Below, one piece after another: positions 1 to 22,011 of a stretch of 22,011 bases of DNA. Under the pieces are notes generated by a model, which saw nothing but the letters and a program-made list of their open reading frames with translations, ran no database searches and had not been told where the DNA came from. This DNA comes from a virus (Duplodnaviria; Heunggongvirae; Uroviricota; Caudoviricetes). A program made the translations under genes and the position numbers. The stretch lies in the IMG/VR virus record IMGVR_UViG_2609459830_000015; one strand, 5' to 3'. The number at the start of each line of letters is the position of its first letter. The first letter of the stretch is position 1.

Positions 1-349
1 GGCGTAAGAGGCCCCGGAACGTTATCGTTCACACGGACCGTGGAGGCCAGTACTGTTCAGCAGATTATCAGGCGCAACTGAAGCGGCATAATCTGCGTGG
101 AAGTATGAGCGCAAAAGGTTGCTGCTACGATAATGCCTGCGTGGAAAGCTTCTTTCATTCGCTGAAAGTGGAATGTATCCATGGAGAACACTTTATCAGC
201 CGGGAAATAATGCGGGCAACGGTGTTTAATTATATCGAATGTGATTACAATCGGTGGCGGCGGCACAGTTGGTGTGGCGGCCTCAGTCCGGAACAATTTG
301 AAAACAAGAACCTCGCTTAGGCCTGTGTCCATATTACGTGGGTAGGATC
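1..349 (+). mobile_element. IS3-family insertion sequence, right-hand end only (element continues left of the window)
   Basis: Transposase OrfB C-terminal coding sequence runs into the window and stops at 320; 321-349 (ggcctgtgtccatattacgtgggtaggatca) reads as a terminal inverted repeat ending TGGGTAGGATCA, consistent with the 5'-TG...CA-3' termini of IS3-family elements. Exact boundary is +/- a few bp. Confidence 0.85.
3..320 (+). CDS. IS3-family transposase OrfB, C-terminal fragment (5' end outside window)
   Basis: Frame 3 is open from the window edge: ...[51 protein letters not shown]...[22 protein letters not shown]. The HTDRGxQY and CYDNAxxESFF blocks are the DDE-region signatures of IS3-family OrfB. 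Confidence 0.9.
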
Positions 350-471
350 ACGCAGGGGTCGGCCCATTTGAGCTTCAGATAGGAACGTTTGAATTCCTTT
401 CACAAAATACATCACATACTGAACGTGAACATTCCCACTTTGATCTTAAGGCCAAAAAGTATGCAGGACTA

Positions 472-2190
472 ATGATTTTTAGGGATAGCTTGAGAGTATT
501 ACCTTATGGTCGAGTAGATAATGATTTCTTCCAGATAGAAGAAAGACGTTCATGGAATGCAGGGCGATATTATTGGTCTAATAGAAGGATTTTTGGTTAT
601 ATTGGAATTACTCAATCCAGTAATAAAGAGCTGAAAGATAAGTCGGGGAGAGAGGGATTCATAAGAAACCAGGCTGCAAGAGAACTGAAAACTATTATAT
701 CTAATTTGTTAACTGAACTTGCTGATAGATTTTTTGGTTCACGTTCTGATGACCGTAAAGAGCTTTTAGAACAAGTTAAGCGTGAAAAAGAGTTAAGAAA
801 ATCTGCTCAACAACAAGCTCGAAAATCAACACAAAAAAGTTTTTCAGAAGCTTTGAAGAATCAGACACCAGTTCTTGATGCTTCCTTGGAGGCTGTTAAA
901 AGGCTGAAAACTAAGCTTGATAAAACTGATGGTTCGTTAGATTTAAACTATCTTAAAATTATAGACAGTGATCTTACAAACTTAGATGCGTTGCGCAGTG
1001 AAATTAAAACGCCTATCAAACCTCCAAAACTTGGAATGTATGAAGAGAAATATAGAGACTACAGAGATAAATTTAATGAGTTCTCTGCGTATATTCTACA
1101 AATGAAGTTAGCAATTAATAAACTTGATTCTGAATTAAATAAACTTGAGCCTTCATTGTCAGCGAAAAATCACCTTGAAAAAAATCAAGGTATTATTAAT
1201 TCTAAACTAACTAAGTTTAATAACACGATAGAGGAGAAGATACATTCTCTTTTAAAAAAATGGGCCGATGAAATAAAGGTTGATCGAAGTGATTATTATG
1301 CTAAAACTATATCAGTTGTTGATTCAATAGATAATGATTCACAAATTGAAAATGTGTTTAATTTGCTCGATAGTTTATATGTTGAGTCAGTTGATACCCT
1401 AACTTTCAAATATCAATCAATAATAAAAGGTCTCGATAGATTATTTGAAGGTATAAACTTAGATTCAGCATTCTCATTATCTGAAGAAGAACGCTCATAT
1501 TTTGAAGAAAAAGCTAAAAGTTTAAACGCGCTTGCACAGTTAGGTATTAGTGTTGAGATAATATCTCATGAACTTGAAGAAATGGATTCTATGGTAACCA
1601 GAGGACTAAACTCTCTTCCTACTTCTGTAAAAGAACACCCTGGTTTTTCATTGGCGTTAAATGCTCACAGATCGCTTACTCAACAAATACGTTTCTTATC
1701 ACCTTTGAAAATATCAGGTTATCAATCCAGGCAGAGAATAACTGGAAAAAATATCATGGATTATGTCCTGAAGTTCTTTGGGGAGCGTTTCGAACGGCAA
1801 CGAATAACTATTGAATTTAGTGAAGAGTTTAAGCAAATCGCAATAACAGATATACCATCAAGGATCTATCCTGTTTTTACTAATATTATCAACAATGCAA
1901 TGTATTGGGTCAGTCTGTCAAATAATAGGCTCATAAAGATTGGTTTTGTGAATTCTTTGGTTATCATAGCAAATTCTGGTCCGGCAATTGATACCGATGA
2001 TATCCCGCGACTATTTGAACTATTTTATAGCAAAAGAGCAAATGGACATGGGGTAGGTCTGTATCTATGTCGAGAAAACCTTGCTGTTGCACATCATAAA
2101 ATATGGTATTCAGAACCTGATGAAGGCGATAACTATTTAATAAAAGATGGCGCTAATTTTGTGATCCAGTTCAATGGAGTGGAGTTCTAA
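472..2190 (+). CDS. Histidine kinase core (coiled-coil region, HisKA-like H-box, HATPase_c); probably 5'-truncated by the IS3 insertion
   Basis: 572-aa ORF. C-terminal third shows an H-box (LGISVEIISHELEEMDSMV), N-box (VFTNIINNAMYW), G1 box (IANSGPAIDTDDIPRLFELFYS) and G2 box (GHGVGLYLCRENLAV). The N-terminal ~250 aa are K/E/L-rich, coiled-coil-like. The same frame is open upstream from 346 (immediately after the IS3 end) to the first ATG at 472, with no stop. Confidence 0.8.
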   Translation: MIFRDSLRVLPYGRVDNDFFQIEERRSWNAGRYYWSNRRIFGYIGITQSSNKELKDKSGREGFIRNQAARELKTIISNLLTELADRFFGSRSDDRKELLEQVKREKELRKSAQQQARKSTQKSFSEALKNQTPVLDASLEAVKRLKTKLDKTDGSLDLNYLKIIDSDLTNLDALRSEIKTPIKPPKLGMYEEKYRDYRDKFNEFSAYILQMKLAINKLDSELNKLEPSLSAKNHLEKNQGIINSKLTKFNNTIEEKIHSLLKKWADEIKVDRSDYYAKTISVVDSIDNDSQIENVFNLLDSLYVESVDTLTFKYQSIIKGLDRLFEGINLDSAFSLSEEERSYFEEKAKSLNALAQLGISVEIISHELEEMDSMVTRGLNSLPTSVKEHPGFSLALNAHRSLTQQIRFLSPLKISGYQSRQRITGKNIMDYVLKFFGERFERQRITIEFSEEFKQIAITDIPSRIYPVFTNIINNAMYWVSLSNNRLIKIGFVNSLVIIANSGPAIDTDDIPRLFELFYSKRANGHGVGLYLCRENLAVAHHKIWYSEPDEGDNYLIKDGANFVIQFNGVEF

Positions 2191-2191
2191 T

Positions 2192-3940
2192 ATGACAGTG
2201 GCAAATTATAATTCTCTTGTCCAGAAAACTTTCTGCGAAAATGCAATTCGTTCCGTTGTCATGATTGATGACGATTTTCTGACGTATTCTGAATCAATCA
2301 GGGCGTTGAATAACGAAGTTGATTTAGACTACAACAAAATTGACTCATCTAAACGAGCCGCTACTCTTGAGAGCTTTTTTCAATCTAAAAATATGATTTG
2401 TGATGTTGACAATGGTTCTGTTAATTTCGATGTGGATCGGATTAGAAAATCAGATCTTATTATTGTAGATTATCATCTTGATAATAATGCACCTGATAAA
2501 ACACTTAAACTATTACAAGATTTGAAAGACTCCGATCATTTAAATATGATTGTAATATATACTAGAGAGAATTTAGAAACGGTTTGGATGCAGATATCAT
2601 CGACTCTCAAAGGTGCTCTGGATATCAACAGCTTGATCATTGACTACGATAATGAAGATGTCCAAAGTTATTGGGAAGACGTTGTATTACCGAACTTAAA
2701 TGATAATGGTAATAAAGCTCTCACAAGAGATGAAACAATAGCCTATATTAAAGACAGTAAGCCTTGTAGAAGAATTAAAAGATTAATACATGATGATGCT
2801 GTGTTGGAGGATCAAAAGGATAAAAACTTCATTGCAAAAATGATTGCAGAATATGCTGTGTCTAGAAATGCAATTATTTCTAGCAACACATCTGGCAATG
2901 TCATTCGGGGTGATGAAAGCGGAGTAAAATGGATTCAATGTGGTAATATCTTTGTCTCCCTATTTCATAAGGTTCAAGATGATCATGAAAACGATGGAGA
3001 TAGAATTTGGCAAACTCTCAATGATTCTCTCATTGAATGGAAACCATCTTATTATCAGTTAATAAAATCTGAAATTCAGAATGCAATCGAAGCTGAGGCT
3101 TTATCTTTTGTAAATCATTTGGCTAACGATCATTACGGTCAAGCTGCGTGGTTAAATGAGATATTAAAATCAGACTCGCCTGATATTAGATGTAGAAATA
3201 TTGACTTTGTATTTGGTAATTTATCAGAAGAGCTTTATCAAAGACTTAAAAATAATAATACGCTGGATGAATTTATCAAAAGTGTTTTTGATAGCTATTC
3301 AAATGAATACGCTAACAGCGGAGTTGCTGCATTGCTCCAATATTGCTCTTCAAAAATGGATCTGCCATCAAATAATGATACTTATCACGAAATGTATCAT
3401 GCTTTAAATATGAATTTGTCTTCAAAGAATTTTGAAGATGGTCATATTTCTACTGGCACTATTTTCTTTGATACAGAGTCGAACAAATGGTATTTATGTG
3501 TATCTGCGGCATGTGATTTGGTTCCTACTCAGGGTAACGACCCTCACCATGTAAGATTAAGTCCGCACAGGCTCATTAAAGTTCTGGAGCTTTTTAACGC
3601 CAGTCAGAGTAAAGCATTGCCATTTGCTGAACATTCGAAATATATATATGTAATGCATAAAAATCAAAGAAAATATCTCTCTATTTTCGAAGGGGATAAA
3701 ACGCTTCCTGTTGTTGATTATATGGTGGTGTTGAATCATGGAACAACAGTTGATGGCGAAGAAAAAAATATTATTTCTGCCGTGTTTTTAAGTAATATGG
3801 ATGGCAACGTGCAAAATGTTCCTGTCCGACTCAAACTTAAATCTCAACTGAGAACTGGTTATGCAGAAAGATATCAGGCTATAGCGTCTCAGTATAGCTC
3901 AAGGATTGGTGTGGATTATGTATCAATGATGCTACCATAA
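2192..3940 (+). CDS. Receiver (REC)-like domain protein with a large C-terminal domain of unknown function (putative phosphorylation-controlled effector)
   Basis: N-terminus resembles a response-regulator receiver: acidic beta1 (VVMIDDD), candidate phospho-acceptor Asp at the end of beta3 (DLIIVDYHLDNN), Thr after beta4 (MIVIYT), then a Lys. The remaining ~430 aa have no motif I recognise. Start taken as ATG 2192 (GGAG at 2181-2184, 7 nt upstream; 1 nt after the kinase stop); an in-frame ATG at 2174 is the alternative. Confidence 0.7.
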   Translation: MTVANYNSLVQKTFCENAIRSVVMIDDDFLTYSESIRALNNEVDLDYNKIDSSKRAATLESFFQSKNMICDVDNGSVNFDVDRIRKSDLIIVDYHLDNNAPDKTLKLLQDLKDSDHLNMIVIYTRENLETVWMQISSTLKGALDINSLIIDYDNEDVQSYWEDVVLPNLNDNGNKALTRDETIAYIKDSKPCRRIKRLIHDDAVLEDQKDKNFIAKMIAEYAVSRNAIISSNTSGNVIRGDESGVKWIQCGNIFVSLFHKVQDDHENDGDRIWQTLNDSLIEWKPSYYQLIKSEIQNAIEAEALSFVNHLANDHYGQAAWLNEILKSDSPDIRCRNIDFVFGNLSEELYQRLKNNNTLDEFIKSVFDSYSNEYANSGVAALLQYCSSKMDLPSNNDTYHEMYHALNMNLSSKNFEDGHISTGTIFFDTESNKWYLCVSAACDLVPTQGNDPHHVRLSPHRLIKVLELFNASQSKALPFAEHSKYIYVMHKNQRKYLSIFEGDKTLPVVDYMVVLNHGTTVDGEEKNIISAVFLSNMDGNVQNVPVRLKLKSQLRTGYAERYQAIASQYSSRIGVDYVSMMLP

Positions 3941-4011: not shown

Positions 4012-4428
4012 TTATTTTTGTTTAAGTCTTCTAAGCTTCATGCATTCTAATGAGAATAATAATAGAGTTGTGCTGTATATAAAGCCAGAGTTAGTTAATA
4101 ACTTTAAATTTAATGCTTCAGGATTTTCACTGAGAAAGTGAAAGGCATAAACTAAGTATACAGCTAAAGTAGCCGTTCCAATTGTTGGTCCAATATCGCC
4201 TTGATCATGAGGTTCAAGGTTTACATTGAACTTGAAGATTAGCCATTCAAATCCCCAAGTAAAAAAAACAACTAATATCATGGCTGCGAATAATTTCGCG
4301 ATGTTATCTGCTGATGGATTCATCAGAACAGATTGTTTCTGAAAAAATTCACAAAGTGAGAGTCCGAAAAAAATAAAAAAAAGTGGTCTGGAACTAAATT
4401 TTTCAAAAACTTTGAATAGGGTTTCCAT
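4012..4428 (-). CDS. Small integral membrane protein (about 4 predicted TM helices), unknown function
   Basis: 138-aa ORF with hydrophobic stretches (PLFFIFFGLSLCEFF; LFAAMILVVFFTWGFEWLIF; IGTATLAVYLVYAFHFL; GFIYSTTLLLFSL). AT-rich like the kinase/REC cargo. Starts 38 bp downstream of the integrase stop on the same strand. Confidence 0.55.
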   Translation of the reverse strand: METLFKVFEKFSSRPLFFIFFGLSLCEFFQKQSVLMNPSADNIAKLFAAMILVVFFTWGFEWLIFKFNVNLEPHDQGDIGPTIGTATLAVYLVYAFHFLSENPEALNLKLLTNSGFIYSTTLLLFSLECMKLRRLKQK

Positions 4429-4466: not shown

Positions 4467-5738
4467 TTAGGCTACCAGAGCATTTGATCTTTGAGCTTGA
4501 ACGTAATCACTCCACCATTGCATCAAACTCTGTCGCTCTATCAGATATTCTGCACGATTGTATGCTGCGATAATTTCATCTTTTTTCGAGTGGGCAAGCG
4601 CTGCCTCAAGAACTTCAGCTCTGAATTTACCAGACTCCTCTGCCGCTGTTCGTGCAATAGAACGCATACCGTGAGCTACAAGCTCGCCTCCGAACCCCAT
4701 TCGGATGATAGCTGCGTTGGCTGTTTGTTCATGCATATGATTAAGAGGCGCTTTTATGCTGGGGAAAACCCATTCTCTATGCCCACTTATTGATTTCATT
4801 AATTCAAGGATGCGCAAAGCTTCTTTACTCAAAGGAACTTTGTGAAGCTTTTTCATTTTCATGAAATCAGCAGGAATGTTCCAAATGCTGTTGGTTGTAT
4901 CAATATCAGACCACCTTGCGCGAACGGCTTCACCCGGACGAACCCATGTCAACAATTGCCATTCAATTAGCATACGTGTTTCCAACCGGATTGACGCATT
5001 CGTCAAAGATTCCATAAACCTTGGCAATTCGCTTGGGGGAAGGGCAGGCATATTTTGCTTTTTTGGTTTACTGAATCTTTGACCAAGGTTGTCAGCCGGG
5101 TTGAACTCAATAAGTTCTTCAGTAGCTGCCCACCGGAAGATTTCATTCAGACGTGAAATGATACGGCGTAGAGTTTCCAATACGCCTCGTTGCTCAATAG
5201 GATCAAGGTGTTGTTTTAAGAGCTTAGGTCGGATCTCATTGATAGGGACATTACCCAGACCGGGAAAGACATTTCTCTCTAAGCTGCGCCAGATGTCTGC
5301 TGCATGGTCTTGTGAGATACCTGATGTCTTTACCTTCTCATCTAACCATTTCCGCGCTACGGCTTGGAGAGTGTGCTCAGTAGCACTCTTTAATGCCTTC
5401 GCCTTATCGTTGTTATGGATTTGGGGATCAACACCATTTGCCAGAAAGGAGAGATATTCATCACGTAAGGCTCTGGCTCTTGCAAGGGTAAGGTGAGGAT
5501 ATGTCCCAAGGCTCATTTTGGTTCTTTTCTTGCTCACTGGTACTGCATACCTGAAATACCAATTTTTCTTGCCTCCTTTCGCCAAAGGAGCGATTCGTAG
5601 AATCAGACCATCACCGTCAAACAAGTTGATTTCTTTATCGGCTGGCTTGGTGCTTTTGATTTCAGTGTCAGTGAGCTTCTTAGCGATTTTTGCCATTTTG
5701 GGACCCTCGGTTTTTGGACCCTTCTTAGTGGGTCCCAT
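4467..5738 (-). CDS. int: P4-type tyrosine integrase (IntA/CP4-57-like family)
   Basis: 423-aa ORF. N-terminal arm-binding region typical of P4-family integrases (KLTDTEIKSTKPADKEINLFDGDGLILRI...KNWYFRY) and a C-terminal catalytic region (...AHGMRSIARTAAEESG...EAALAHSKKDEIIAAYNRAEY) with the R...HxxR...Y pattern. The true start is probably the internal Met (MAKIAKKLTD, about 5696). Confidence 0.9.
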   Translation of the reverse strand: MGPTKKGPKTEGPKMAKIAKKLTDTEIKSTKPADKEINLFDGDGLILRIAPLAKGGKKNWYFRYAVPVSKKRTKMSLGTYPHLTLARARALRDEYLSFLANGVDPQIHNNDKAKALKSATEHTLQAVARKWLDEKVKTSGISQDHAADIWRSLERNVFPGLGNVPINEIRPKLLKQHLDPIEQRGVLETLRRIISRLNEIFRWAATEELIEFNPADNLGQRFSKPKKQNMPALPPSELPRFMESLTNASIRLETRMLIEWQLLTWVRPGEAVRARWSDIDTTNSIWNIPADFMKMKKLHKVPLSKEALRILELMKSISGHREWVFPSIKAPLNHMHEQTANAAIIRMGFGGELVAHGMRSIARTAAEESGKFRAEVLEAALAHSKKDEIIAAYNRAEYLIERQSLMQWWSDYVQAQRSNALVA

Positions 5739-5861: not shown

Positions 5862-5897
5862 TGGTGGGCTGGCGGGAGTTGAACCCGTATCCGAAAA
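5862..5897 (-). other. att-site core: degenerate copy of the tmRNA (ssrA) 3' end, not a complete gene
   Basis: Minus strand reads ...CGGGTTCAACTCCCGCCAGC-CCACCA, matching the 3' terminus of E. coli tmRNA as I recall it (GCGGGTTCAACTCCCGCCAGCTCCACCA) with one base missing and two substitutions just upstream; similarity decays after about 36 nt and no ssrA 5' sequence is present at 5898-6230. Same orientation as, and 124 bp upstream of, the P4-type integrase. Confidence 0.6.
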
Positions 5898-6154
5898 ATT
5901 CTTAACCAATTGAATATTAATGATTTTTCTAATTTAAAATACCTCACGTGCATTTTACGTGCATATTGTAGTACCTCTAACGTCCTGATTCTGTCCAACA
6001 TTTTGAAGTGTTTAGGCGCCACTGGGGCGGTGATTAGCGCTGTTTTGTGCTGTTCATAGCACTTCAAGACTATTCAATTCAGAGCAATCGTTGAAGAATT
6101 ACCCGTAAGGTAATATCATACTATTTAGGTAACTGCGGTTATCACCATCAAGGG

Positions 6155-6188
6155 CCACTGATGACGCTGTTATCATCAGTGGCTTTTT
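6155..6188 (+). terminator. Rho-independent terminator-like hairpin (plus strand)
   Basis: Perfect 10-bp stem CCACTGATGA / TCATCAGTGG (6155-6164 / 6173-6182) with an 8-nt loop, followed by CTTTTTGT. No T-run on the opposite strand, so it is unidirectional. Confidence 0.6.
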
Positions 6189-6230
6189 GTACCTTCACTG
6201 CACAGCCAGTGAAGTGTTGAGGAGACTAGC

Positions 6231-6572
6231 ATGAGAACAGTAGCGAGAAGATCGATACAGACGATTGAGCGTCGGACTCAACTCGTCAGTTCTTTTGTTG
6301 ACTCAAACACAGCAAACGAGTTCTTCGTGAGAAGACTGAGTGATCGTGTCTCCCCGGCACGTCAGCTGTTTATTGTGACATTGAACAATGAGGTTCGTGA
6401 CGGTGACGTGATCCCGTTCGCTGAGATCGCCATGAACAAAGAAAAATTGCGCTATGTTGTGAAGCCAGCAGATCAGTATCCTCAGTATGTAAGCAGTAAT
6501 CTGCTGAAGAAAATTGAAGCGGCAATTGCTCTATACATGCAGAAGAACTACAGGGAAATTAACTACCATTAA
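6231..6572 (+). CDS. Hypothetical protein (113 aa), first gene of a cargo cassette between att and the prophage integrase
   Basis: ORF preceded by GAGGAG (6219-6224) 6 nt before the ATG; no recognisable motif. An 8-bp-stem hairpin (CTTCACTG...CAGTGAAG, 6193-6214) sits in the leader. Confidence 0.6.
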   Translation: MRTVARRSIQTIERRTQLVSSFVDSNTANEFFVRRLSDRVSPARQLFIVTLNNEVRDGDVIPFAEIAMNKEKLRYVVKPADQYPQYVSSNLLKKIEAAIALYMQKNYREINYH

Positions 6573-6583
6573 AAGGTTGCTGA

Positions 6584-7351
6584 ATGGCTCCTGCGTTAAT
6601 ACCTTCATATAACAAGGACTTGAACATTACGCCATTTGGCGAAAAACGTCTTATTGAGTCATTCTATTTTTTCACTGCCGAGGCTGGCTTACTGAGGGCT
6701 GATGAGTACATTGTCAGTTCTGGTGAGTTTCAGTACTACTTGGATGTGTATCAACTGGGATGTTCCACCGACGACTTTTTTTTAGACTATGGCAGTGACC
6801 TTCTTGATTCGAAGGTTCCAATGCAGGATCTGGTCAATACCCTCTTGGGTCTTGATATGGTAGACGATAACAAAACGATAAGAATAGGTCGTATACAGTT
6901 CAACGACTTTAATTTTATCGAAGAGAACGGTCAGATGATGACCGGAAAGCAAGTGAAAAGCGCTGTTATCGCACAGGATTTCCAATCAGCAGGTTTGGCG
7001 CGTGAGATCTATAAAATGCTTGCGCGAAAGCATGAGTTTCTCATCTGCGATAACATTCAAAGTATTGCCGGTGGTGCTCTTTGGGCTAGTAGCATCATTC
7101 GAATTGCCGAGGTACGGATCTACAATTCACGCACGAAGAAATTTATGGACATACTTGGTCCAGGTGCGCGTGGCGTTTCAGGTACTTTGCCATGGAGTGC
7201 GAATGATCTGTCTGTAGATGAGATTGTTCGCTGGGGTCGTGCGTATGATGATGAAAACTGTTGTCGTCACATTGTACATGTTATCTGTAAGGACCGACTC
7301 ATTGACGATCAATTTCATGATTATGTTTCGATAGGTGGCGCGACAGAATAA
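6584..7351 (+). CDS. Hypothetical protein (255 aa), second gene of the att-int cargo cassette
   Basis: ORF starts 11 bp after the upstream gene's stop and is followed by a terminator; no recognisable catalytic motif. Confidence 0.65.
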   Translation: MAPALIPSYNKDLNITPFGEKRLIESFYFFTAEAGLLRADEYIVSSGEFQYYLDVYQLGCSTDDFFLDYGSDLLDSKVPMQDLVNTLLGLDMVDDNKTIRIGRIQFNDFNFIEENGQMMTGKQVKSAVIAQDFQSAGLAREIYKMLARKHEFLICDNIQSIAGGALWASSIIRIAEVRIYNSRTKKFMDILGPGARGVSGTLPWSANDLSVDEIVRWGRAYDDENCCRHIVHVICKDRLIDDQFHDYVSIGGATE

Positions 7352-7363
7352 CCATCAAAAAGA

Positions 7364-7387
7364 CCCGGCATTTGCCGGGTTTTTTCT
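7364..7387. terminator. Bidirectional rho-independent terminator between convergent genes
   Basis: Hairpin CCCGGC-ATTT-GCCGGG (7364-7379) flanked by an A-run upstream and T-run downstream (aaaaaGACCCGGCATTTGCCGGGtttttt), so it works for the plus-strand cassette and the minus-strand integrase. Confidence 0.6.
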
Positions 7388-7392
7388 TCAAA

Positions 7393-15335: not shown

Positions 15336-15748
15336 AGGTACCCGAACAGAAGCAGGCTTAAAGGTGCCTGTTCAGGTTGGCAACCAACTGACCCAACTCC
15401 TCATGTGTACTAGGGAAGTAGTACGTTTTTATGGGGAAGAGGGTAAGGGGGGTAAGGGGGGATTGGGTGTTGGGGCAGGAATAGGGTCTTTTCCAACAGG
15501 AGAGATCCATTGGTTAAGTAGATCACTGTCTTAAGGGCGCAATTTAAAAAAACGCCCGTATCAGCAAGGTAGTACAAAGCGCTCAGGCGCTGAGAAACGA
15601 AAAGGGTTCTTCCTGGAAGAGTGATTTTTCAGAGGAGCTGAATCAGAAGGGAGGCTGGCAGCCTTTGGGGAGGCCACCAGCCATGTGAGGGGGAATCCAT
15701 GAAAACCACATCACAAAATTATTATCTCATCAGCACGGGAGCTGCACA

Positions 15749-17407
15749 ATGGAGCTGACGATCACGCCGAATTTTGCACAGGAACGAGCGTTAAACATGT
15801 TGCGCCGTGACTGGAAGGCAAACGACACCTTCATGGTTTACTCGCCAACAGGTAGCGGTAAAACGGGTCTGGCAGCCTTCATAGTTGCTGGTTTTGTCAG
15901 CCGTGGTATGCGTGTTCTGTTCTGTGTTCCGTACACCATCCTGATTGGTCAGACGGCTAATCGGTTCGTGCAGTATGGTTTACCTGGAGATGAAATCGGT
16001 TATATCTGGGCGGATCACCCGAACTACGATCCGGACCGGAAAATTCAGATTGCCAGCGCTGACACGCTTATTCGTCGTGTTTTTCCTGAAAATATCGATC
16101 TGCTGATTATCGACGAAGCGCACCTGCGTAAAAAACGCATCCTGAAGGATATCGAACGTCTGCGCGGCAAAGGCGTAAAGGTGATTGGCCTGTCGGGTAC
16201 TCCGTTTTCTCCGTTCCTGGGCAAATACTATGACCGACTGATTAAGCCGACCACCATCGGCGAGTTAATCCAGCGTGGCGATCTGAGTAAATACGAATTT
16301 TACGCGCCAACTAAGCCGGATCTGAAAGGTGTTAAAACCACATCTTCGCTTGAGTACGGCCGCGATTACAACGAAACACAGCTGGCTGAAATCATGTGCG
16401 GCTCTACGCTGGTGGGCGACATCGTACAGAACTGGCTGGAGAATGGTCGGGATTTACCTACCATCGCTTTCTGCGTCAACGTAGCTCACGCCAATTATCT
16501 GACAATCCAGTTTAACCTGGCGGGTGTTAACGCTGAGGTAATGACCGCCGACACTCCGGTAGATGAGCGCCAGACCATCATTCACCGCTTTGAAACCGGT
16601 GCAACGAAAATCATCGTTAGTGTGGGCGTTCTGGTGGCCGGCTTTGATAGTGACGTTCGTTGCATCATCTACGCCAGGCCAACAAAAAGCGAAATTCGCT
16701 GGTTGCAGGCTCTCGGGCGTGGGCTGCGCACCGCACCGGGTAAAGAGTCCTGCCTTATCTTCGATCACAGCGGCACCGTGCACCGTTTGGGTTATCCGGA
16801 TTCAATCGAGTACGACGAGCTTCCCGGTAAGTCTGACGGCATGGAGGAAAGCGCGCGCCGGGCAGTTGAGGAACGGGCCGAAAAACTGCCACATGAATGC
16901 CCTCAATGCCACTACATGAAGCCAGCAGGCGTCTATGTTTGCCCGAAATGTGGACACAAGCCGCTGCGAGGTGAAGACGTTGATACTGACACTAGCCGCA
17001 AACTTAATAAGCTGGGTAAAAATCAGCATCAGTCGACGAAGGCAGAGAAACAGTCCTGGTGGAGTCAGATCAAATTTTATCAGCGCCAGCGTGCTTCGCT
17101 GGGGCGTCCAGTCAGTGACGGATGGTGTGCTCACACTTTCCGGGAAAAGTTCGGTGAGTGGCCTGACGGACTGAGTAACTTTCCGATGGAAATTACCCCT
17201 GAGGTAAATAACTACATCAGACACAAACTGATCCGGTTTGCCAAAGGCCACCAGCGGGTTCAGAAGGTCACTGAAAACGCACAAACAACGATTGATTTAT
17301 CTCAGGAACGTGATGAACGACGTGAGATACCGGCAGGCAGTGAGGCCTGGCGCATCATGCAGGCAAAGCACCAACTCCAGAAAAATATAAACAGTCTGAG
17401 TCAGTAA
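15749..17407 (+). CDS. SF2 DEAD/DEAH-box helicase with C-terminal zinc-ribbon (phage replication helicase)
   Basis: Walker A (YSPTGSGKTG), DEAH box (LLIIDEAH), motif III (LSGTPF), motif VI (QALGRGLRT), and a C-terminal CPQC...CPKCG zinc-ribbon. Confidence 0.85.
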   Translation: MELTITPNFAQERALNMLRRDWKANDTFMVYSPTGSGKTGLAAFIVAGFVSRGMRVLFCVPYTILIGQTANRFVQYGLPGDEIGYIWADHPNYDPDRKIQIASADTLIRRVFPENIDLLIIDEAHLRKKRILKDIERLRGKGVKVIGLSGTPFSPFLGKYYDRLIKPTTIGELIQRGDLSKYEFYAPTKPDLKGVKTTSSLEYGRDYNETQLAEIMCGSTLVGDIVQNWLENGRDLPTIAFCVNVAHANYLTIQFNLAGVNAEVMTADTPVDERQTIIHRFETGATKIIVSVGVLVAGFDSDVRCIIYARPTKSEIRWLQALGRGLRTAPGKESCLIFDHSGTVHRLGYPDSIEYDELPGKSDGMEESARRAVEERAEKLPHECPQCHYMKPAGVYVCPKCGHKPLRGEDVDTDTSRKLNKLGKNQHQSTKAEKQSWWSQIKFYQRQRASLGRPVSDGWCAHTFREKFGEWPDGLSNFPMEITPEVNNYIRHKLIRFAKGHQRVQKVTENAQTTIDLSQERDERREIPAGSEAWRIMQAKHQLQKNINSLSQ

Positions 17408-17408
17408 G

Positions 17409-18377
17409 ATGAAAACAGCAGATGCAGCGAAAGGCCGCTGGCCTGAAATATTAGAGCACTTCGGTCTGCCGCCGATAACCGGAAAAAATCACTTCAAGGG
17501 TGAATGCCCGGTATGCGGTGCACGTGGCAAGTTCCGAATTGACGACCGCGACGGTGCAGGAACGTGGATCTGTGTATGTGGTAGTGGCGATGGTATGAAA
17601 CTTGTCACCCTGACACAGGCGAAGCCATTTAACGAGATTTGTACCGAAATAGACCGCCTGATCGGTAATGATTACCAACGGGTTAAAATCCCGGTAACCA
17701 GCAGCGCCACCAGCTTACGCAAACGGGTATTGAGCAAGTTTTCAAAACTGGAGGCACTGCGTGGTACATCCGGCGCAGCGTATCTTAATTCTCGTGGAAT
17801 ATTCAGTCTTCCTGCTGAGGCGATCCGGTTCAATGCCAGGCAGAGACACAACGGGAGTGTGTTCCAGTCTCTTTATTCACTTGCTACGGACGATAAAGGG
17901 GAGTTGTGCTATCTGCACCAGACTCTGCTTGATGGTGATAAAAAAGCAGATATCGGTAGCAGTGCAAAGCGCCTCAAATCCCTGCAGGAAGATAACTATT
18001 TGGATCACGCTCGTTCTGTAGCTATCCGCATGTTTCCTGTCGCCAGCACTCTGGGTATCGCCGAAGGCATCGAAACAGCGCTGTCAGCGCACCAGATTTA
18101 TAACGTGAACACCTGGGCAACCATTAACAGCGGCTTTATGAAAAAGTTTCGCGTACCAGCTGGTGTTCTGCACCTGATTATTTTTGCCGACCGTGACGAG
18201 AACAGCGCCACCGGGCTGGCTGCGGCTTGCGAATGTGCTCATGCCAATCTGATGGCAAAGAATGACCTGCAGCGCGTGAGCGTGTACTGGCCGGATCACG
18301 ATGATTTCAACAATATGCTCATGAACGGTGATCAGGTTCGAGAGCTGGTTTTCCATAAGAAAAAGGCGGTTGCGTAA
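17409..18377 (+). CDS. DNA primase (zinc-binding N-terminus plus Toprim domain)
   Basis: CPVCGARGKFRIDDRDGAGTWICVCG zinc-binding motif; Toprim signatures (GIAEGIETALS with the conserved Glu; LIIFADRDENSATG with DxD). Starts 1 nt after the helicase stop. Confidence 0.75.
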   Translation: MKTADAAKGRWPEILEHFGLPPITGKNHFKGECPVCGARGKFRIDDRDGAGTWICVCGSGDGMKLVTLTQAKPFNEICTEIDRLIGNDYQRVKIPVTSSATSLRKRVLSKFSKLEALRGTSGAAYLNSRGIFSLPAEAIRFNARQRHNGSVFQSLYSLATDDKGELCYLHQTLLDGDKKADIGSSAKRLKSLQEDNYLDHARSVAIRMFPVASTLGIAEGIETALSAHQIYNVNTWATINSGFMKKFRVPAGVLHLIIFADRDENSATGLAAACECAHANLMAKNDLQRVSVYWPDHDDFNNMLMNGDQVRELVFHKKKAVA

Positions 18378-19234
18378 TGCGTACTGATAATAACGAACAT
18401 AAAGCACTATTCACCATCCCGACGGCAGCGTACAGCTCCGCCCTCGCAAACATCAAGCCCCTGCCAGAGCAACGGAGAATCACCGGGCATAAGCAGACTG
18501 ATGCTTATCTTTGGGTGCTGGAGGTTATCCGTCTGAACGAACCCGCACATCTGGATGCTGCTGAGGCTGCGCTGGTGAAAATTAAAATTTCCCCAAAAGA
18601 GGCTCAGGAACGCTATTCGCGTTATCTGCTGGCGAATGGTTACGAACCTTTCCAGGTTGCGTTCGGCATCATCGGCATGGATAACCCTGCGCAGGTTATC
18701 AGGAACGCCCGGGAGAACATCAAAAAAGCGGCATCAGTCAGGGCTACGTTTGGTAGCTATGAAGCAGCGCTCGAAGATGTGGAAGCAGAGCGGGTCATCA
18801 GGTCTTCCCAGAAATTTATCAACGATCATCTCTGGGGCTGGACTGCGGCAGAGAAAAAAGCCGGAAGCATTGGCGGCAGCCGCATGAACGAAATTGATGA
18901 ACAGCGTCGGGCATTTGTTGATGGATATCGCGATGTGCTGCCTGAGCCTTATACGCTGTCTGATGTTGTTCGCGAGTTCGTTTACTGGGACTGGCTCTAC
19001 AGTGTTCGCCACACTGCAACTAAAGAACAGGGCGATGAGTTTGGTTACTCTGAGCATCACGAATCGGTATATGACCGGGAGCGCTACCTTGAAAAATTGC
19101 TGGCAACCATCAAACCGGTGACACGCGCTGAAGCCGTGGAGGTGTGCCGCTGGTTTCTGGCAAGTGGTAAGGGTGAATGCATGGAAGACGACGGTGCAAC
19201 GGTCATTCTCAATCTGGTTGGTGAGTGCGAATAA
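18377..19234 (+). CDS. Hypothetical phage protein (285 aa)
   Basis: ORF coupled to the primase (TAATG overlap at 18375-18379) and to the downstream Q-like gene; no recognisable motif. Confidence 0.55.
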   Translation: MRTDNNEHKALFTIPTAAYSSALANIKPLPEQRRITGHKQTDAYLWVLEVIRLNEPAHLDAAEAALVKIKISPKEAQERYSRYLLANGYEPFQVAFGIIGMDNPAQVIRNARENIKKAASVRATFGSYEAALEDVEAERVIRSSQKFINDHLWGWTAAEKKAGSIGGSRMNEIDEQRRAFVDGYRDVLPEPYTLSDVVREFVYWDWLYSVRHTATKEQGDEFGYSEHHESVYDRERYLEKLLATIKPVTRAEAVEVCRWFLASGKGECMEDDGATVILNLVGECE

Positions 19235-19626
19235 TGCGTGATATTCAGATGGTTCTCGAACGCTGGGGGGCATGGGCGGCAAGTGGTAACGCCGGGGTGG
19301 ACTATTCTCCGATAGCTGCTGGATTTAAAGGCCTTTTACCATCCACCGCTAAACCTCGCCCGGCCTGCAGCGATGATGACGGCCTTATCATCGAAAACTG
19401 CCTTACGCGCCTGAAGAAGAAAAAACCGGACGAGTATTCGCTGCTGGTAGCTCATTATCTGCTGCGCATATCAAAAAGGCAGATTGCCAGAACAAGAAAG
19501 AAGAGCGAAAAGGCAATACGAATTGAGATGCAGATTGCTGAAGGATTTATTGACGGATGTCTGTCGATGCTGGGTGTAAGGCTGGAGATGGACGACTGGC
19601 TGCCCAAAAAAGTAAAAAATGATTAG
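19234..19626 (+). CDS. Q-like late-gene antitermination protein (phage 82/21 Q type)
   Basis: MRDIQMVLERWGAWAASGNAGVDYSPIAAGFKGLL... resembles the N-terminus of phage-82-type Q antiterminators as I recall them. A strong intrinsic terminator lies about 60 bp downstream. Start taken as ATG 19234 (TAATG overlap) rather than the track's GTG 19225. Confidence 0.6.
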   Translation: MRDIQMVLERWGAWAASGNAGVDYSPIAAGFKGLLPSTAKPRPACSDDDGLIIENCLTRLKKKKPDEYSLLVAHYLLRISKRQIARTRKKSEKAIRIEMQIAEGFIDGCLSMLGVRLEMDDWLPKKVKND

Positions 19627-19684
19627 CGCGGTCCGCAAAAAGTATGTCAGTATGTTAAGAGTGGTTACTACGCCACACAGCTTA

Positions 19685-19708
19685 AACCCGCCGCGAGCGG
19701 GTTTTTTT
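19685..19708 (+). terminator. Rho-independent terminator downstream of Q (tR'-like)
   Basis: aaaCCCGC-CGCGA-GCGGGttttttt: GC stem 19687-19701, T-run 19702-19708. Confidence 0.7.
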
Positions 19709-19823
19709 ATGGCTGAAATCGGTCCAGTACAGTAAACGCGCTGGCGGCGGTGAATACCGGTCTTTCAGCTTGCTGGCTTTTTCGACAAGAGTTATTGGTG
19801 TGTCACGTTAACCGGAAAAAGAC

Positions 19824-20021
19824 ATGCTGAAACAGCAGGATATGACCGAAACCGCCAGAGTGGTGTTTAATGAATTAAGCGTCACCGAACCGGCGACCGT
19901 CGGGGAGATTGCGCAGAATACTTACCTTTCACGCGAACGCTGCCAGTTAATACTGACCCAGCTGGTTATGGCGGGTCTGGCAGACTATCAGTTCGGTTGT
20001 TACAGACGCCTTCAGTCCTGA
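19824..20021 (+). CDS. Hypothetical small protein (65 aa)
   Basis: ORF downstream of the tR'-like terminator; its stop codon sits in the stem of a terminator-like hairpin. No motif. Confidence 0.4.
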   Translation: MLKQQDMTETARVVFNELSVTEPATVGEIAQNTYLSRERCQLILTQLVMAGLADYQFGCYRRLQS

Positions 20022-20032
20022 AGGCTTTTTTA
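20008..20032 (+). terminator. Rho-independent terminator-like hairpin
   Basis: GCCTTCA-GTCC-TGAAGGC (20008-20025) followed by TTTTTTAT. Confidence 0.5.
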
Positions 20033-20485
20033 TTTGTGGTAAATGGGCGGCTGGTGGGTGTGGTGGTTGTTGCTTTCCCGTTGCTGAAAAAGAAAGCATC
20101 AGGCGATTAGCAGGGTATCAGTTACCCGTTGAAATTTTTAAATACCTCACAATTCAGGCGGTTGACTGTTGTCTGGTTTGCGGGGAGTTTGTTAAAAGAA
20201 ACTGGCATGGTGAATCCCCCTGTGCGGAGGGGCGATCAGCAACCAGGTATATGGGATAATCGCGGATTCAGGTGCTGATACTGAATTCACCGGGAGGCAC
20301 CCGGCACCATGCTTTGCCACAAAAGTGTTGTTTCTGTTTTTCTCAAACTATCATCGTTATCCCTTTATTTCCGGCTGCGCATGGCGTGGCCTTTTTTTTA
20401 CGACCAGCCACTGGCAGATGGCCATCCTGTAATTTGATTCCGGTTCCGGCTTTTTAACTCTGTTCCTGTACACGGGAGAAATTCG

Positions 20486-20774
20486 ATGTCGATTAAACAT
20501 TATGATGTTGTCAGGGCGGCGTCGCCGTCAGACCTTGCGGAAAAGCTGACACATAAACTGAAAGAGGGCTGGCAGCCGTTTGGTAGTCCGGTGGCCATAA
20601 CCCCTTATACCCTGATGCAGGCGATTGCAGCAGAAGGTGATGTGGTGGTCAGTGGTGCAACTGAGCCGGATTGGTACTACGTCATCGTACTGGCCGGGCA
20701 GTCCAATGCAATGGCTTACGGTGAAGGGCTTCCGCTTCCGGATTCATACGATGCTCCGGATCCGCGCATTAAAC
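20486..20774 (+). pseudogene. NanS-p-like esterase gene (DUF1737-like N-terminus plus start of SGNH domain), 3'-truncated by IS66-family insertion
   Basis: MSIKHYDVVRAASPSDLAEKLTHKLKEGWQPFGSPV... then ...YYVIVLAGQSNAMAYGEGLPLP, where GQSN is the block-I motif of sialate-O-acetylesterase-type SGNH hydrolases. Protein-like sequence stops where the IS terminus GTAAGCG begins (about 20775); the rest of the track ORF is read-through into the IS. Confidence 0.6.
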
Positions 20775-22011
20775 GTAAGCGTGCAGCAAGAACCGTATTG
20801 ACGGGGATGTGTTATTCAGTCGGCAGTGCTACGCGCCAGGGGAGCAGTTCGCCGACCCGGTTTATCGGCCAGTCGGCTATGACGTCAAGGACATAGCGGA
20901 GGTAGCTTTCTGGCTCCACTCCGTTCAGTTTGCACGTCCCGATCAGGCTGTACAGCAGCGCTCCCCGCTCTCCTCCATGATCCGAACCGAAGAACAGGTA
21001 GTTTTTGCGGCCCAGACTGACCATCCGCAACGCATTTTCAGCGATGTTATTGTCAGCCTCAGCCCAGCCATCGTTCGCATAGTACGTCAGCGCCGGCCAC
21101 TGGTTCAGGGCGTATGCGAACGCTTTCGCCAGTTCTGAGTGTCGCGACAGGGTTTTCATCTTTTCACGCAGCCAGCTTTCCAGGGATTTCAGCAGCGGTT
21201 TCGTTTTCAACTGACGTTCGGCAAGGCGCTGCTCCGCCGTCATTCCCCTTATCTCTGCCTCGATGGCGTACAGTTCGCCGATCCGTTTCAGCGCTTCCTC
21301 CGTCAGGGCTGACGGGGTGCGAACGTGCACATCGTGGATTTTACGGCGGGCGTGAGCCCAACAGGCGGCTTCCGTTATCCGGCCATCCCGGTACAGCTCG
21401 TTGAACCCGGCGTATGCATCCGCCTGCAGTACACCACTGAACCCCGCAAGATGGGTCTGCGGATGGATGCCTTTTCTGTCCGGGCTGTAAGCGAACCACA
21501 CCGCCGGCGCCAGCGTTGACCCGGCGTTACGGTCGTCACGAACGTAGGTCCATAACCGCCCGGTCTTCGTTTTCTTATTGCCTGGCAACAGCACCGGGAC
21601 AGGCGTGTCATCAGCATGGAGCTTACCGTCAGTCAGCACATAGTCCTGAAGCGCTTCTTCCAGCGGTGACAGTAGCCGGCAGCATGCATCCACCCAGCCC
21701 GACAGCAGTGAACGACTCAGCTCCACGCCCTGGCGGCCGTACATTTCAGACTGGCGGTACAGCGGGGTGTGCTCTGCATACTTTGAGATCAGCACGCGGG
21801 CCAGCAGCCCCGGTCCTGCGATACCCCGCTCGATGGGCCGTGAAGGCGCGGGGGCCTGCACGATGGCATCGCACTGAGTACAGGCATGCTTTTCACGTAC
21901 AGTCCGGATAACCCGGAAGGCGCTGCGCATCAGCTCCAGCTGTTCGGCGGCATCCTCACCCAGATAGCTCAGCGAGCCTCCACATTCCGGGCAGCATGAC
22001 GCTGCCGGCAG
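20775..22011 (-). mobile_element. IS66-family insertion sequence, one end only (element continues right of the window)
   Basis: TnpC-type transposase on the minus strand running to the window edge; terminus beginning GTAAGCG at 20775, 37 bp beyond the transposase stop. The GTAAGCG terminus is from memory of IS66-family ends. Confidence 0.75.
20812..22011 (-). CDS. IS66-family transposase TnpC (N-terminus outside window)
   Basis: The minus-strand frame is open from the track's Met (21930) to the window edge: ...[48 protein letters not shown]..., giving the CxxC...CxxC zinc-finger typical of IS66 TnpC upstream of the DDE region. Confidence 0.88.

What the first reader, a model, noticed from the sequence alone, without database searches (positions are those of the whole stretch)
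321..480. IS3 insertion appears to have cut off the 5' part (sensor region) of the kinase gene
The kinase frame is open without a stop from 346, the first codon after the IS3 terminus, through to the first ATG at 472 (translation HAGVGPFELQIGTFEFLSQNTSHTEREHSHFDLKAKKYAGL-MIFRD...). The remaining protein has coiled-coil, H-box and ATPase regions but no sensor or input domain. The system is therefore probably inactivated or deregulated in this genome, and any expression likely depends on an outward promoter from the IS or an internal start.
Basis: seen in the sequence. Interest (0 to 1): 0.5.

Follow-up and report, generated by a model that had tools for sequence, protein, structure and literature searches.

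The report
IS3-truncated remnant of paraMORC histidine-kinase gene
An IS3 insertion sequence marks the edge of a deletion that removed the first 375 codons of a 988-codon kinase-like gene and its partner DNA-methylase gene, leaving a decaying gene fragment that databases still annotate as an intact protein; this is an ordinary kind of gene loss.

Summary
The right end of IS3 stops at base 350, not 345. From base 351 the sequence is 99% identical to codons 376-988 of full-length 988-aa homologues in Salmonella, Klebsiella and Serratia. The open stretch 349-471 is therefore real coding sequence stranded upstream of the first usable ATG (472 = Met-417).

The lost part is not a classical sensor. 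It is an N-terminal GHKL ATPase module (HATPase_c_3, paraMORC type) plus half of a beta-rich middle domain.

The gene belongs to the HEF_HK/Response_reg_2 two-component-like system described in 2021. In intact islands a C5 DNA methylase gene overlaps its start, and that gene is also gone here.

In related E. coli genomes IS3 has no 3-bp target duplication and is flanked on its other side by a truncated ygaQ-like amylase gene. It is therefore a deletion joint, not a simple insertion. The missing 5' part was found in none of 5,426 complete E. coli genomes.

The remnant shows relaxed constraint: 9 nonsynonymous versus 1 synonymous polymorphic codons, plus frameshifts, further IS hits and deletions in some strains. 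It is most likely a pseudogene. Its expression was not tested. Interest is low.

The parts
1..350 (+). Right-hand end of insertion sequence IS3. The 3' end of transposase orfB runs to the TAG at 318-320, and the right inverted repeat ends ...GGATCA at 350.
   Evidence: Pfam finds rve_2/rve_3/rve on the translation of 3-320. The stretch is 100% identical to annotated 'IS3-like element IS3 family transposase' in many E. coli genomes. The inverted repeat was read directly.
225..299 (+). Published outward-facing promoter-like motifs inside the IS3 right end: TTTAAT 225-230 /15 bp/ TACAAT 246-251, and TTGGTG 269-274 ... CAATTT 294-299.
   Evidence: Pattern search and direct reading. The motifs and the reporter data come from PMC12095673. 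In that work the wild-type fragment had no detectable activity, and removing the last 50 bp raised expression about 1.9-fold.
350..351 (+). Junction between the IS3 terminus and the truncated kinase-like gene. It falls inside codon 376 of the 988-codon gene.
   Evidence: The DNA alignment with two uninterrupted alleles loses similarity upstream of 350/351. The protein alignment starts at residue 376/377.
351..471 (+). Stranded coding remnant (third base of codon 376 through codon 416) with no start codon of its own.
   Evidence: 40/41 residues are identical to P0003 residues 377-416. There is no ATG/GTG/TTG in frame before 472.
472..2190 (+). The 572-aa ORF (Met-417 to residue 988 of the ancestral protein). 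It contains the rest of a beta-rich domain, a long helical region, the HEF_HK H-box domain and the HATPase_c catalytic domain. RefSeq annotates it as 'ATP-binding protein' and does not flag it as a pseudogene.
   Evidence: No amino-acid differences after residue 705 in the comparison with P0003, and the invariant H782/E783 and the N and G boxes fall in that stretch.
2192..3940 (+). Partner gene for the Response_reg_2 (receiver-like) protein, 582 aa, with an uncharacterised C-terminal region of about 400 aa.
4012..4428 (-). 138-aa hypothetical gene that is conserved next to the pair in intact islands.
4467..5696 (-). P4-type tyrosine integrase of the ssrA-associated island (409 aa as annotated; the ORF is open to 5738).
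   Evidence: NCBIfam PRK09692, E 4e-132. Context.
5862..5896 (-). Short stretch corresponding to the 3' end of ssrA in related genomes (the presumed att repeat). Similarity to the ssrA context ends at 5896 and a lambdoid prophage follows.
   Evidence: ssrA lies at L001 13862-14224, which corresponds to window 5862 onward. The window matches L001 only to 5896. No tmRNA was found in the window.

Best explanation
Window 351-2190 is the 3' 62% of a gene for a 988-aa soluble paraMORC-type histidine-kinase-like protein. Its ancestral domain order is HATPase_c_3 GHKL ATPase, beta-rich middle domain, long helical region, HEF_HK H-box, then HATPase_c. The gene belongs to a three-gene module (C5 DNA methylase, HK-like, Response_reg_2 protein) carried on an integrative island next to ssrA.

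An IS3 copy transposed into codon 376. An IS3-associated deletion, or recombination between two IS3 copies, then removed everything on the other side of the element. That included codons 1-375, the overlapping methylase gene and the rest of the island, as far as a ygaQ-like amylase gene. These steps are inferred from the missing target duplication and the two truncated flanking genes.

What remains cannot make the N-terminal ATPase/input module. At best it could give a 572-aa product from Met-417, which starts in the middle of a folded domain (weak model). The SD-like AGGA lies only 3 nt upstream of that ATG, and no demonstrated promoter drives it.

The remnant is most likely a non-functional pseudogene drifting neutrally. 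It and its still-intact receiver partner persist because the event is recent: alleles are at least 99% identical across E. coli.

Shown: the breakpoint, the missing domains, the missing methylase, the absence of the 5' part from complete E. coli genomes, and the excess of nonsynonymous polymorphism. Inferred: the order of events, the lack of function and the lack of expression.
For: - Breakpoint: full-length homologues of 988-998 aa cover 100% of the 613-aa translation at up to 99% identity. The alignment runs from residue 376/377 to 988, and DNA homology begins at window 351.
- Domains: P0003 has HATPase_c_3 at 28-137, HEF_HK at 772-830 and HATPase_c at 878-969. The N-terminus also resembles the GHKL domain of BbrUII/HgiDII restriction enzymes (E 1.5e-13, far below the family cut-off).
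- Intact loci: methylase (PF00145) overlapping the 988-aa gene by 20 nt, then Response_reg_2, the 138-aa gene, the integrase and smpB.
- E. coli context: ygaQ' | IS3 | 'kinase. The IS3 flanks are TCT and CGC, so there is no target duplication.
- Missing DNA: the 5' part plus methylase DNA gives no megablast match in 5,426 complete E. coli genomes.
- Frequency: 561 genomes carry the remnant, 484 with the exact IS3 junction and 504 with the ygaQ|IS3 junction.
- Decay: 9 nonsynonymous versus 1 synonymous polymorphic codons in 11 alleles, plus one frameshifted allele. IS1 and ISKpn26 lie in or beside the gene in two strains. One strain has an internal deletion.
- Short homologues elsewhere are artefacts or pseudogenes.
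- The family and its methylase linkage are described in PMC8011034.
Against: - The 572-aa ORF and the receiver gene are intact in the great majority of carriers. 548 of 560 genomes have an uninterrupted receiver-gene site, and the H-box and ATP-binding motifs are unchanged. A residual function cannot be excluded.
- The polymorphism sample is small: 10 variable codons in genomes picked from the low-identity end of the hit list.
- Divergence from intact alleles (5 nonsynonymous, 4-8 synonymous) has no power, and those sites lie in variable columns.
- Pfam-based surveys report HEF_HK proteins without HATPase_c_3 ('group 2', 34 of 222), so a kinase core alone might work in some lineages.
- Charlier et al. 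1982 reported IS3 acting as a mobile promoter (cited), so some transcription is possible.
- The left end of this IS3 copy lies outside the window. The deletion-joint inference therefore rests on related genomes, not on this one.
Confidence: 0.85

Rival explanations
1. The truncated kinase core is still made, from Met-417 and from read-through or outward transcription out of IS3. It would act as an input-less, deregulated kinase or phosphatase on the intact Response_reg_2 partner. The pair would then be a domesticated, functional module.
For: The ORF is intact in most carriers and its catalytic motifs are unchanged. The receiver partner is intact in 548 of 560 genomes. Outward promoter-like motifs lie in the IS3 end, and no terminator-like site lies between them and the ORF. 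The literature lists an HEF_HK+HATPase_c architecture.
Against: The polymorphic codons split 9 nonsynonymous to 1 synonymous, and there is a frameshifted allele. Further IS hits and deletions occur. IS3 itself is lost in the O111 and O103 lineages, so no IS promoter remains there. The wild-type IS3 right end had no detectable promoter activity in a reporter. The product would start inside a predicted beta-rich domain, although that model is of low confidence. The SD-like AGGA lies only 3 nt from the ATG. The short homologues I traced were miscalls or pseudogenes.
Confidence: 0.08
2. This is a simple IS3 insertion into an otherwise complete gene. The 5' part and the methylase gene would then lie just beyond the left end of the IS, outside the window.
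For: The window begins inside IS3, so its own left flank cannot be seen. The right junction sits exactly at the IS terminus, as an insertion would give.
Against: In every related complete genome inspected, the other side of IS3 is a truncated ygaQ-like gene and there is no target duplication. 504 genomes share that left junction. The missing 2.3 kb has no match anywhere in 5,426 complete E. coli genomes.
Confidence: 0.04
3. ATG 472 is the native start of a naturally short (572-aa) kinase, and the open frame upstream is chance.
For: Ten of the listed hits are 564-572-aa proteins at 82-84% identity from other species, including Salmonella, Klebsiella, Pectobacterium, Yersinia and Morganella. RefSeq annotates the E. 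coli ORF as complete.
Against: The upstream 41 codons are 40/41 identical to residues 377-416 of 988-aa proteins. The Salmonella '572-aa' locus has an intact 996-codon ORF. The Klebsiella locus is split into 314 + 572 aa. G415 and L416, just before the Met, are invariant in 40 full-length homologues.
Confidence: 0.02

Closest known systems
HEF_HK / Response_reg_2 two-component-like system linked to C5 DNA methylases (Bellieny-Rabelo, Pretorius & Moleleki 2021, PMC8011034)
   Same: The window has the same two Pfam domains (PF19191 and PF19192), both above their cut-offs, in adjacent co-oriented genes. The kinase-like protein is soluble and carries a C-terminal HATPase_c. Intact relatives have the N-terminal HATPase_c_3 and an upstream C5 methylase, exactly as the paper describes.
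   Different: The window copy has lost the HATPase_c_3 module and the methylase gene through an IS3-bounded deletion. It mimics the paper's 'group 2' architecture (HEF_HK+HATPase_c) without being a native short form.
paraMORC GHKL ATPases and GHKL-type restriction enzymes (BbrUII/HgiDII family)
   Same: The missing N-terminal domain of the ancestral protein matches HATPase_c_3 (E 3.6e-9) and the GHKL part of NF050001 (E 1.5e-13). It sits next to a C5 methylase, as those enzymes do.
   Different: The score of 50 bits is far below the family cut-off of 550 bits, and only the ATPase domain matches. The protein carries a histidine-kinase core instead of a nuclease. None of this domain is present in the window itself.
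IS3-mediated adjacent deletion and IS excision (insertion-deletion-excision model, Kanai et al. 2022, PMC8860574; IS-excision enhancer of EHEC)
   Same: An IS3 copy without a target duplication joins two truncated genes. Related lineages show imprecise loss of that IS3, with a few flanking bases lost or added, and an internal IS3-to-flank deletion at microhomology.
   Different: No operon is formed, because the two truncated genes point away from the joint. The involvement of the excision enhancer is my inference from the serotypes (O111, O103) and was not tested.
Classical membrane sensor histidine kinases truncated by IS elements
   Same: The catalytic core is retained and the N-terminal input region is lost through an IS.
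   Different: The lost region is a cytoplasmic ATPase module, not a periplasmic, PAS or transmembrane sensor. The DHp domain is the divergent HEF_HK type.

Membership tests
IS3 (the element itself, IS3 family) | Terminal inverted repeat ending TGATC.../...GATCA and an orfB with an rve integrase core | tested here: met
   The IRR was read at about 312-350 and pairs with the IRL TGATCTTACCCAGC... in L001. rve_2, rve_3 and rve are found on 3-320. The stretch is 100% identical to annotated IS3 copies.
Simple IS3 insertion | A 3-bp direct target duplication flanking the element, with both halves of the target gene present | tested here: not met
   In L001 the flanks are TCT and CGC, and the left neighbour is a truncated ygaQ-like gene. 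The 5' half is absent from 5,426 genomes. The window's own left flank cannot be tested, because the window starts inside IS3.
HEF_HK histidine-kinase-like family (PF19191) | HEF_HK H-box domain with a conserved His-Glu, followed by HATPase_c | tested here: met
   PF19191 scores 26.2 bits against a cut-off of 24.1. PF02518 scores 44.7 bits against 26.4. H782 and E783 are invariant in 40 homologues and lie in the stretch after residue 705 where the window shows no differences from P0003.
HEF_HK histidine-kinase-like family (PF19191), predominant 'group 1' architecture | N-terminal HATPase_c_3 (paraMORC GHKL) domain | tested here: not met
   The domain is absent from the window translation. It is present at residues 28-137 of the 99%-identical full-length homologues. 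It was lost by truncation at codon 376.
HEF_HK / Response_reg_2 two-component-like system | Adjacent gene that encodes a Response_reg_2 receiver-like protein | tested here: met
HEF_HK / Response_reg_2 two-component-like system | Linked upstream C5 cytosine DNA methylase (frequent, not universal) | tested here: not met
   The methylase is present and overlaps the kinase start in intact loci L002-L006, L009 and L012. It is absent from the window, and its DNA was not found in complete E. coli genomes.
HEF_HK / Response_reg_2 two-component-like system | Autophosphorylation on His and phosphotransfer to the receiver Asp | not testable with these tools
   The defining paper reports no biochemistry for any family member.
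Classical sensor histidine kinase | Transmembrane, periplasmic or PAS/GAF/HAMP input domain N-terminal to the DHp domain | tested here: not met
   Pfam finds no such domain in the full-length homologues, only HATPase_c_3. The paper reports no predicted transmembrane regions in the family.

The most novel reading that the evidence does not exclude
The input-less kinase core (Met-417 to 988) and its intact receiver-effector partner could be retained in hundreds of E. coli genomes because they still function. They might act as a constitutively signalling or phosphatase-locked module, freed from the methylase/ATPase self-versus-non-self check and transcribed out of IS3. That would be a case of an IS turning a restriction-modification-linked signalling system into something new. 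A secondary and more likely point is that the locus gives a natural, stepwise record of the IS3 insertion-deletion-excision pathway across E. coli lineages.
Probability: 0.07. Interest if true: 0.45.

Novelty: new member of a known kind. Interest (0 to 1): 0.2.

Why it matters
There are three practical points.

1. **Annotation.** RefSeq names this fragment as a complete 572-aa 'ATP-binding protein', in a cluster of about 2,000 member sequences. The same 572-aa model appears on genes in other species that are either intact 996-codon ORFs or split pseudogenes. Domain-architecture surveys of this little-studied family can therefore over-count forms 'lacking the N-terminal ATPase'.

2. **Choice of strain.** Anyone testing the HEF_HK/Response_reg_2/C5-methylase system should not use the common E. 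coli copy. It lacks both the methylase and the ATPase module.

3. **IS biology.** The locus preserves successive stages across lineages: IS3-bounded deletion, then imprecise IS3 loss. That laboratory-proposed pathway is said to leave few traces in nature.

None of this would surprise a specialist.

Tried and rejected
- **AlphaFold2 of the full-length kinase-like protein.** With 40 sequences, all at least 61% identical, the model was poor (mean pLDDT 59.8, pTM 0.34). I used only its secondary-structure pattern around the breakpoint and ran no fold search on it.
- **PADLOC models.** No hit for either protein.
- **Generic promoter and terminator scan.** No consensus promoter between 212 and 472 and no terminator-like site.
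- **dN/dS against intact alleles.** Too few differences, and the nonsynonymous ones lie in variable columns.
- **tmRNA searches.** ARAGORN and Rfam found no tmRNA. This showed that the window leaves the ssrA context at 5896 and enters a prophage.
- **Coverage count.** The figure of 558 genomes covering at least 80% of window 1-2200 does not prove the junction, because IS3 is only 16% of that query. I replaced it with a junction-centred query, which gave 484 genomes.
- **Untraceable short homologues.** P0079 and P0085 could not be located on contigs.
- **Supplementary tables of the 2021 paper.** They are not held, so I could not check whether E. coli entries sit in its 'group 2'.
Full report
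**1. What the sequence shows**

- The window opens inside the transposase gene of IS3. The translation of 3-320 carries rve_2, rve_3 and rve integrase-core domains and ends at TAG 318-320.
- The IS3 right inverted repeat ends ...GTGGGTAGGATCA at base 350. This stretch is 100% identical to copies annotated 'IS3-like element IS3 family transposase' in E. coli genomes.
- In the kinase frame a TAG sits at 343-345, inside the repeat. The frame is then open to the stop at 2188-2190. The first ATG/GTG/TTG is the ATG at 472.
IS3 ends at 350, not 345, so the first codon and two-thirds of the second codon of the 'open frame' are IS3 sequence.

**2. Is it a truncation?**

- A search with the 613-aa translation (349-2187) found homologues of 988-998 aa in Salmonella, Klebsiella, Serratia and others. 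They cover 100% of the query at up to 99% identity.
- Against P0003 (988 aa) the window aligns without gaps from residue 376/377 to residue 988, with 607 of 613 residues identical. This includes the 41 codons upstream of ATG 472.
- In a DNA alignment with two uninterrupted alleles, similarity starts exactly at window 351. A350 could belong to either partner.
- The gene is therefore cut within codon 376, and 375 codons plus 2 nt are missing. ATG 472 is Met-417 of the ancestral protein. The two residues before it (G415, L416) are invariant in 40 full-length homologues.

**3.

- Database entries of 572 aa exist in other species at 82-84% identity.
- In Salmonella Bareilly (L009, L010) the 572-aa call sits inside an intact 996-codon ORF that begins 20 nt inside the methylase gene. 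The start was simply under-called.
- In K. pneumoniae (L012) the gene is split into a 314-aa HATPase_c_3 ORF and the 572-aa ORF. The overall span of 2,986 nt is not a multiple of three.
- Two further entries could not be traced.
- None of the traceable cases is a native short gene.

**4. What was lost**

- Full-length proteins have HATPase_c_3 at residues 28-137, HEF_HK at 772-830 and HATPase_c at 878-969.
- In NCBIfam the N-terminus best matches the GHKL part of BbrUII/HgiDII restriction enzymes. The E-value is 1.5e-13, but the score is far below the family cut-off.
- A low-confidence AF2 model (pLDDT 59.8) places a beta-rich domain at about 305-465. The breakpoint would then cut inside a domain, and Met-417 would start mid-domain. 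This is weak evidence.
- The window retains part of that domain, the long helical region, the H-box and the catalytic domain. There are no amino-acid differences from P0003 after residue 705.

**5. What system it is**

- HEF_HK (PF19191) and Response_reg_2 (PF19192) were defined by Bellieny-Rabelo et al. 2021 (PMC8011034). They described an adjacent, soluble, two-component-like pair that is strongly linked to C5 DNA methylases and related to paraMORC ATPases. They proposed that HATPase_c_3 occupies the sensor position.
- Its C-terminal region of about 400 aa matches nothing in Pfam, NCBIfam or PDB.
- In five intact loci the gene order is: C5 methylase (overlapping the kinase start by 20 nt), the 988-aa gene, the Response_reg_2 gene, a 138-aa gene on the other strand, a P4-type integrase, and in L006 smpB and its neighbours. 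Relaxase and further integrase genes lie upstream.

**6. Insertion or deletion joint?**

- In related E. coli genomes the order is gabD-lhgO-glaH, a ygaQ-like alpha-amylase pseudogene missing its N-terminus, IS3, the truncated kinase gene, the receiver gene, the 138-aa gene, the integrase and ssrA.
- IS3 is flanked by TCT on the left and CGC on the right, so the 3-bp duplication expected for IS3 (from my own knowledge) is absent.
- Both neighbours have lost their 5' ends toward the IS.
- A 2.3-kb probe covering the methylase gene and the missing kinase 5' part, taken from an intact locus, finds nothing in 5,426 complete E. coli genomes.
- IS3 is therefore the scar of an IS3-associated deletion or of recombination between two IS3 copies, and the missing part is not 'on the far side'.
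- Which gene was hit first is unresolved. The window's own left flank lies outside the window.

**7. Population picture**

- 561 of 5,426 complete genomes carry the remnant, and 560 of them are at least 99% identical to the window.
- 484 keep the exact IS3|kinase junction, and 504 keep the ygaQ|IS3 junction.
- In the O111 lineage IS3 is gone and the two stumps are joined as ...ccttagagatg-cg-CGCAGGGG.
- In an O103:H2 strain the join is ...cccattc|AGGGGTC.
- In strain C3 only about 135 bp of the IS3 left end remain. They are fused at the microhomology cttgctga to the kinase gene near window 722.
- This series matches the insertion-deletion-excision pathway shown for IS3 in the laboratory (PMC8860574).

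**8. Function of the remnant**

- Among 11 E. coli alleles the kinase remnant has 9 nonsynonymous and 1 synonymous polymorphic codons, and a twelfth allele is frameshifted. The receiver gene has 3 and 3, and the integrase 1 and 1.
- Nine of ten is what neutrality predicts, since about three-quarters of random changes are nonsynonymous. By my own binomial calculation it is unlikely under purifying selection: about 0.001 if omega = 0.2.
- The sample is small and was picked from the low-identity end of the hit list. That choice should not bias the ratio.
- Other strains carry IS1 or ISKpn26 in or beside the gene.
- 12 of 560 genomes have a 1,310-bp IS3-family element in the receiver gene at 3551-3553, with a normal 3-bp duplication.
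- Divergence from intact alleles is too small to be informative.

**9. Expression**

- No consensus promoter or terminator lies between the IS end and ATG 472.
- The IS3 right end contains the two published outward motif pairs: TTTAAT/TACAAT at 225-251 and TTGGTG/CAATTT at 269-299.
- In a reporter study, however, the wild-type 150-bp right end was chosen because it had no detectable promoter activity. Its last 50 bp reduce expression about 1.9-fold, probably through a pause site (PMC12095673).
- The AGGA at 465-468 lies only 3 nt from the ATG.
- Expression is therefore possible but probably low, and I did not test it.

**10. Verdict**

I refine it to an IS3-bounded deletion that removed the ATPase/input module and the methylase gene of a known, poorly characterised restriction-modification-linked signalling system, leaving a pseudogene.
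- This is a new example of a very common kind of event, so interest is low.
- Two side products have some value. One is the mis-annotation and its apparent spread to other species. The other is the natural insertion-deletion-excision series.

Noticed in passing
window 350/351; L017 and L019 around 3890-3912; L007 4000-4010; L008 4860-5015: Different E. coli lineages show successive states of the same joint. 484 genomes have IS3 present. The O111 lineage lost IS3 imprecisely (6 bp of the ygaQ flank lost, 2 bp added). An O103:H2 strain lost IS3 with a few more bases. Strain C3 keeps only about 135 bp of IS3, fused to the kinase gene at an 8-bp microhomology. This looks like a natural record of the IS3 insertion-deletion-excision pathway.
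   Followed up: partly
window 472-2190; L009 3993-6983; L012 2734-5719: RefSeq annotates the truncated E. coli ORF as a complete 572-aa 'ATP-binding protein'. The same 572-aa model is called on an intact 996-codon gene in Salmonella Bareilly and on a split gene in K. pneumoniae. The short model may be propagating by homology-based start selection. The published 'group 2' architecture (HEF_HK+HATPase_c) may include such cases.
   Followed up: partly
window 5897-22011: Beyond the island integrase the window does not continue into ssrA as in most related genomes. It continues into a lambdoid prophage with an integrase at 7393-8571 (-), a LexA-family repressor, helicase and toprim replication genes, a Q-like antiterminator and the sRNA STnc100 at 20176-20348. 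Only about 35 bp (5862-5896) correspond to the ssrA 3' end. No complete E. coli genome in the collection covers 80% or more of the whole window (best 65%).
   Followed up: partly
window 2192-3940 (protein residues ~180-582): The output region of the Response_reg_2 protein is confidently modelled (pLDDT mostly 85-95). It has invariant residues in 41 homologues (C436, C441, P445, Q552, R554, Y557, R571, G573, D575; D442 nearly invariant). It matches no Pfam, NCBIfam or PADLOC family above noise and no solved structure, so its activity is unknown.
   Followed up: partly
window 3551-3553; L007 7202-8511: In the O103:H2 lineage (12 of 560 complete genomes) a 1,310-bp IS3-family element with an AL1L pseudoknot annotation interrupts the receiver gene with a normal 3-bp target duplication. 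A 453-aa truncated product cluster has about 1,600 member sequences in the protein collection.
   Followed up: partly
L001 (NZ_CP026085.1): The record labelled E. coli 'DH5alpha' is 4.83 Mb and carries this ssrA island remnant. As far as I recall, K-12 carries CP4-57 at ssrA, so the strain label may be wrong.
   Followed up: no
L002-L005 positions ~17000-22967 (Salmonella loci): In Salmonella the intact island is not next to smpB. It lies beside a type I secretion operon and a giant BapA-like adhesin gene, so the same island uses or sits at different chromosomal contexts in different hosts.
   Followed up: no
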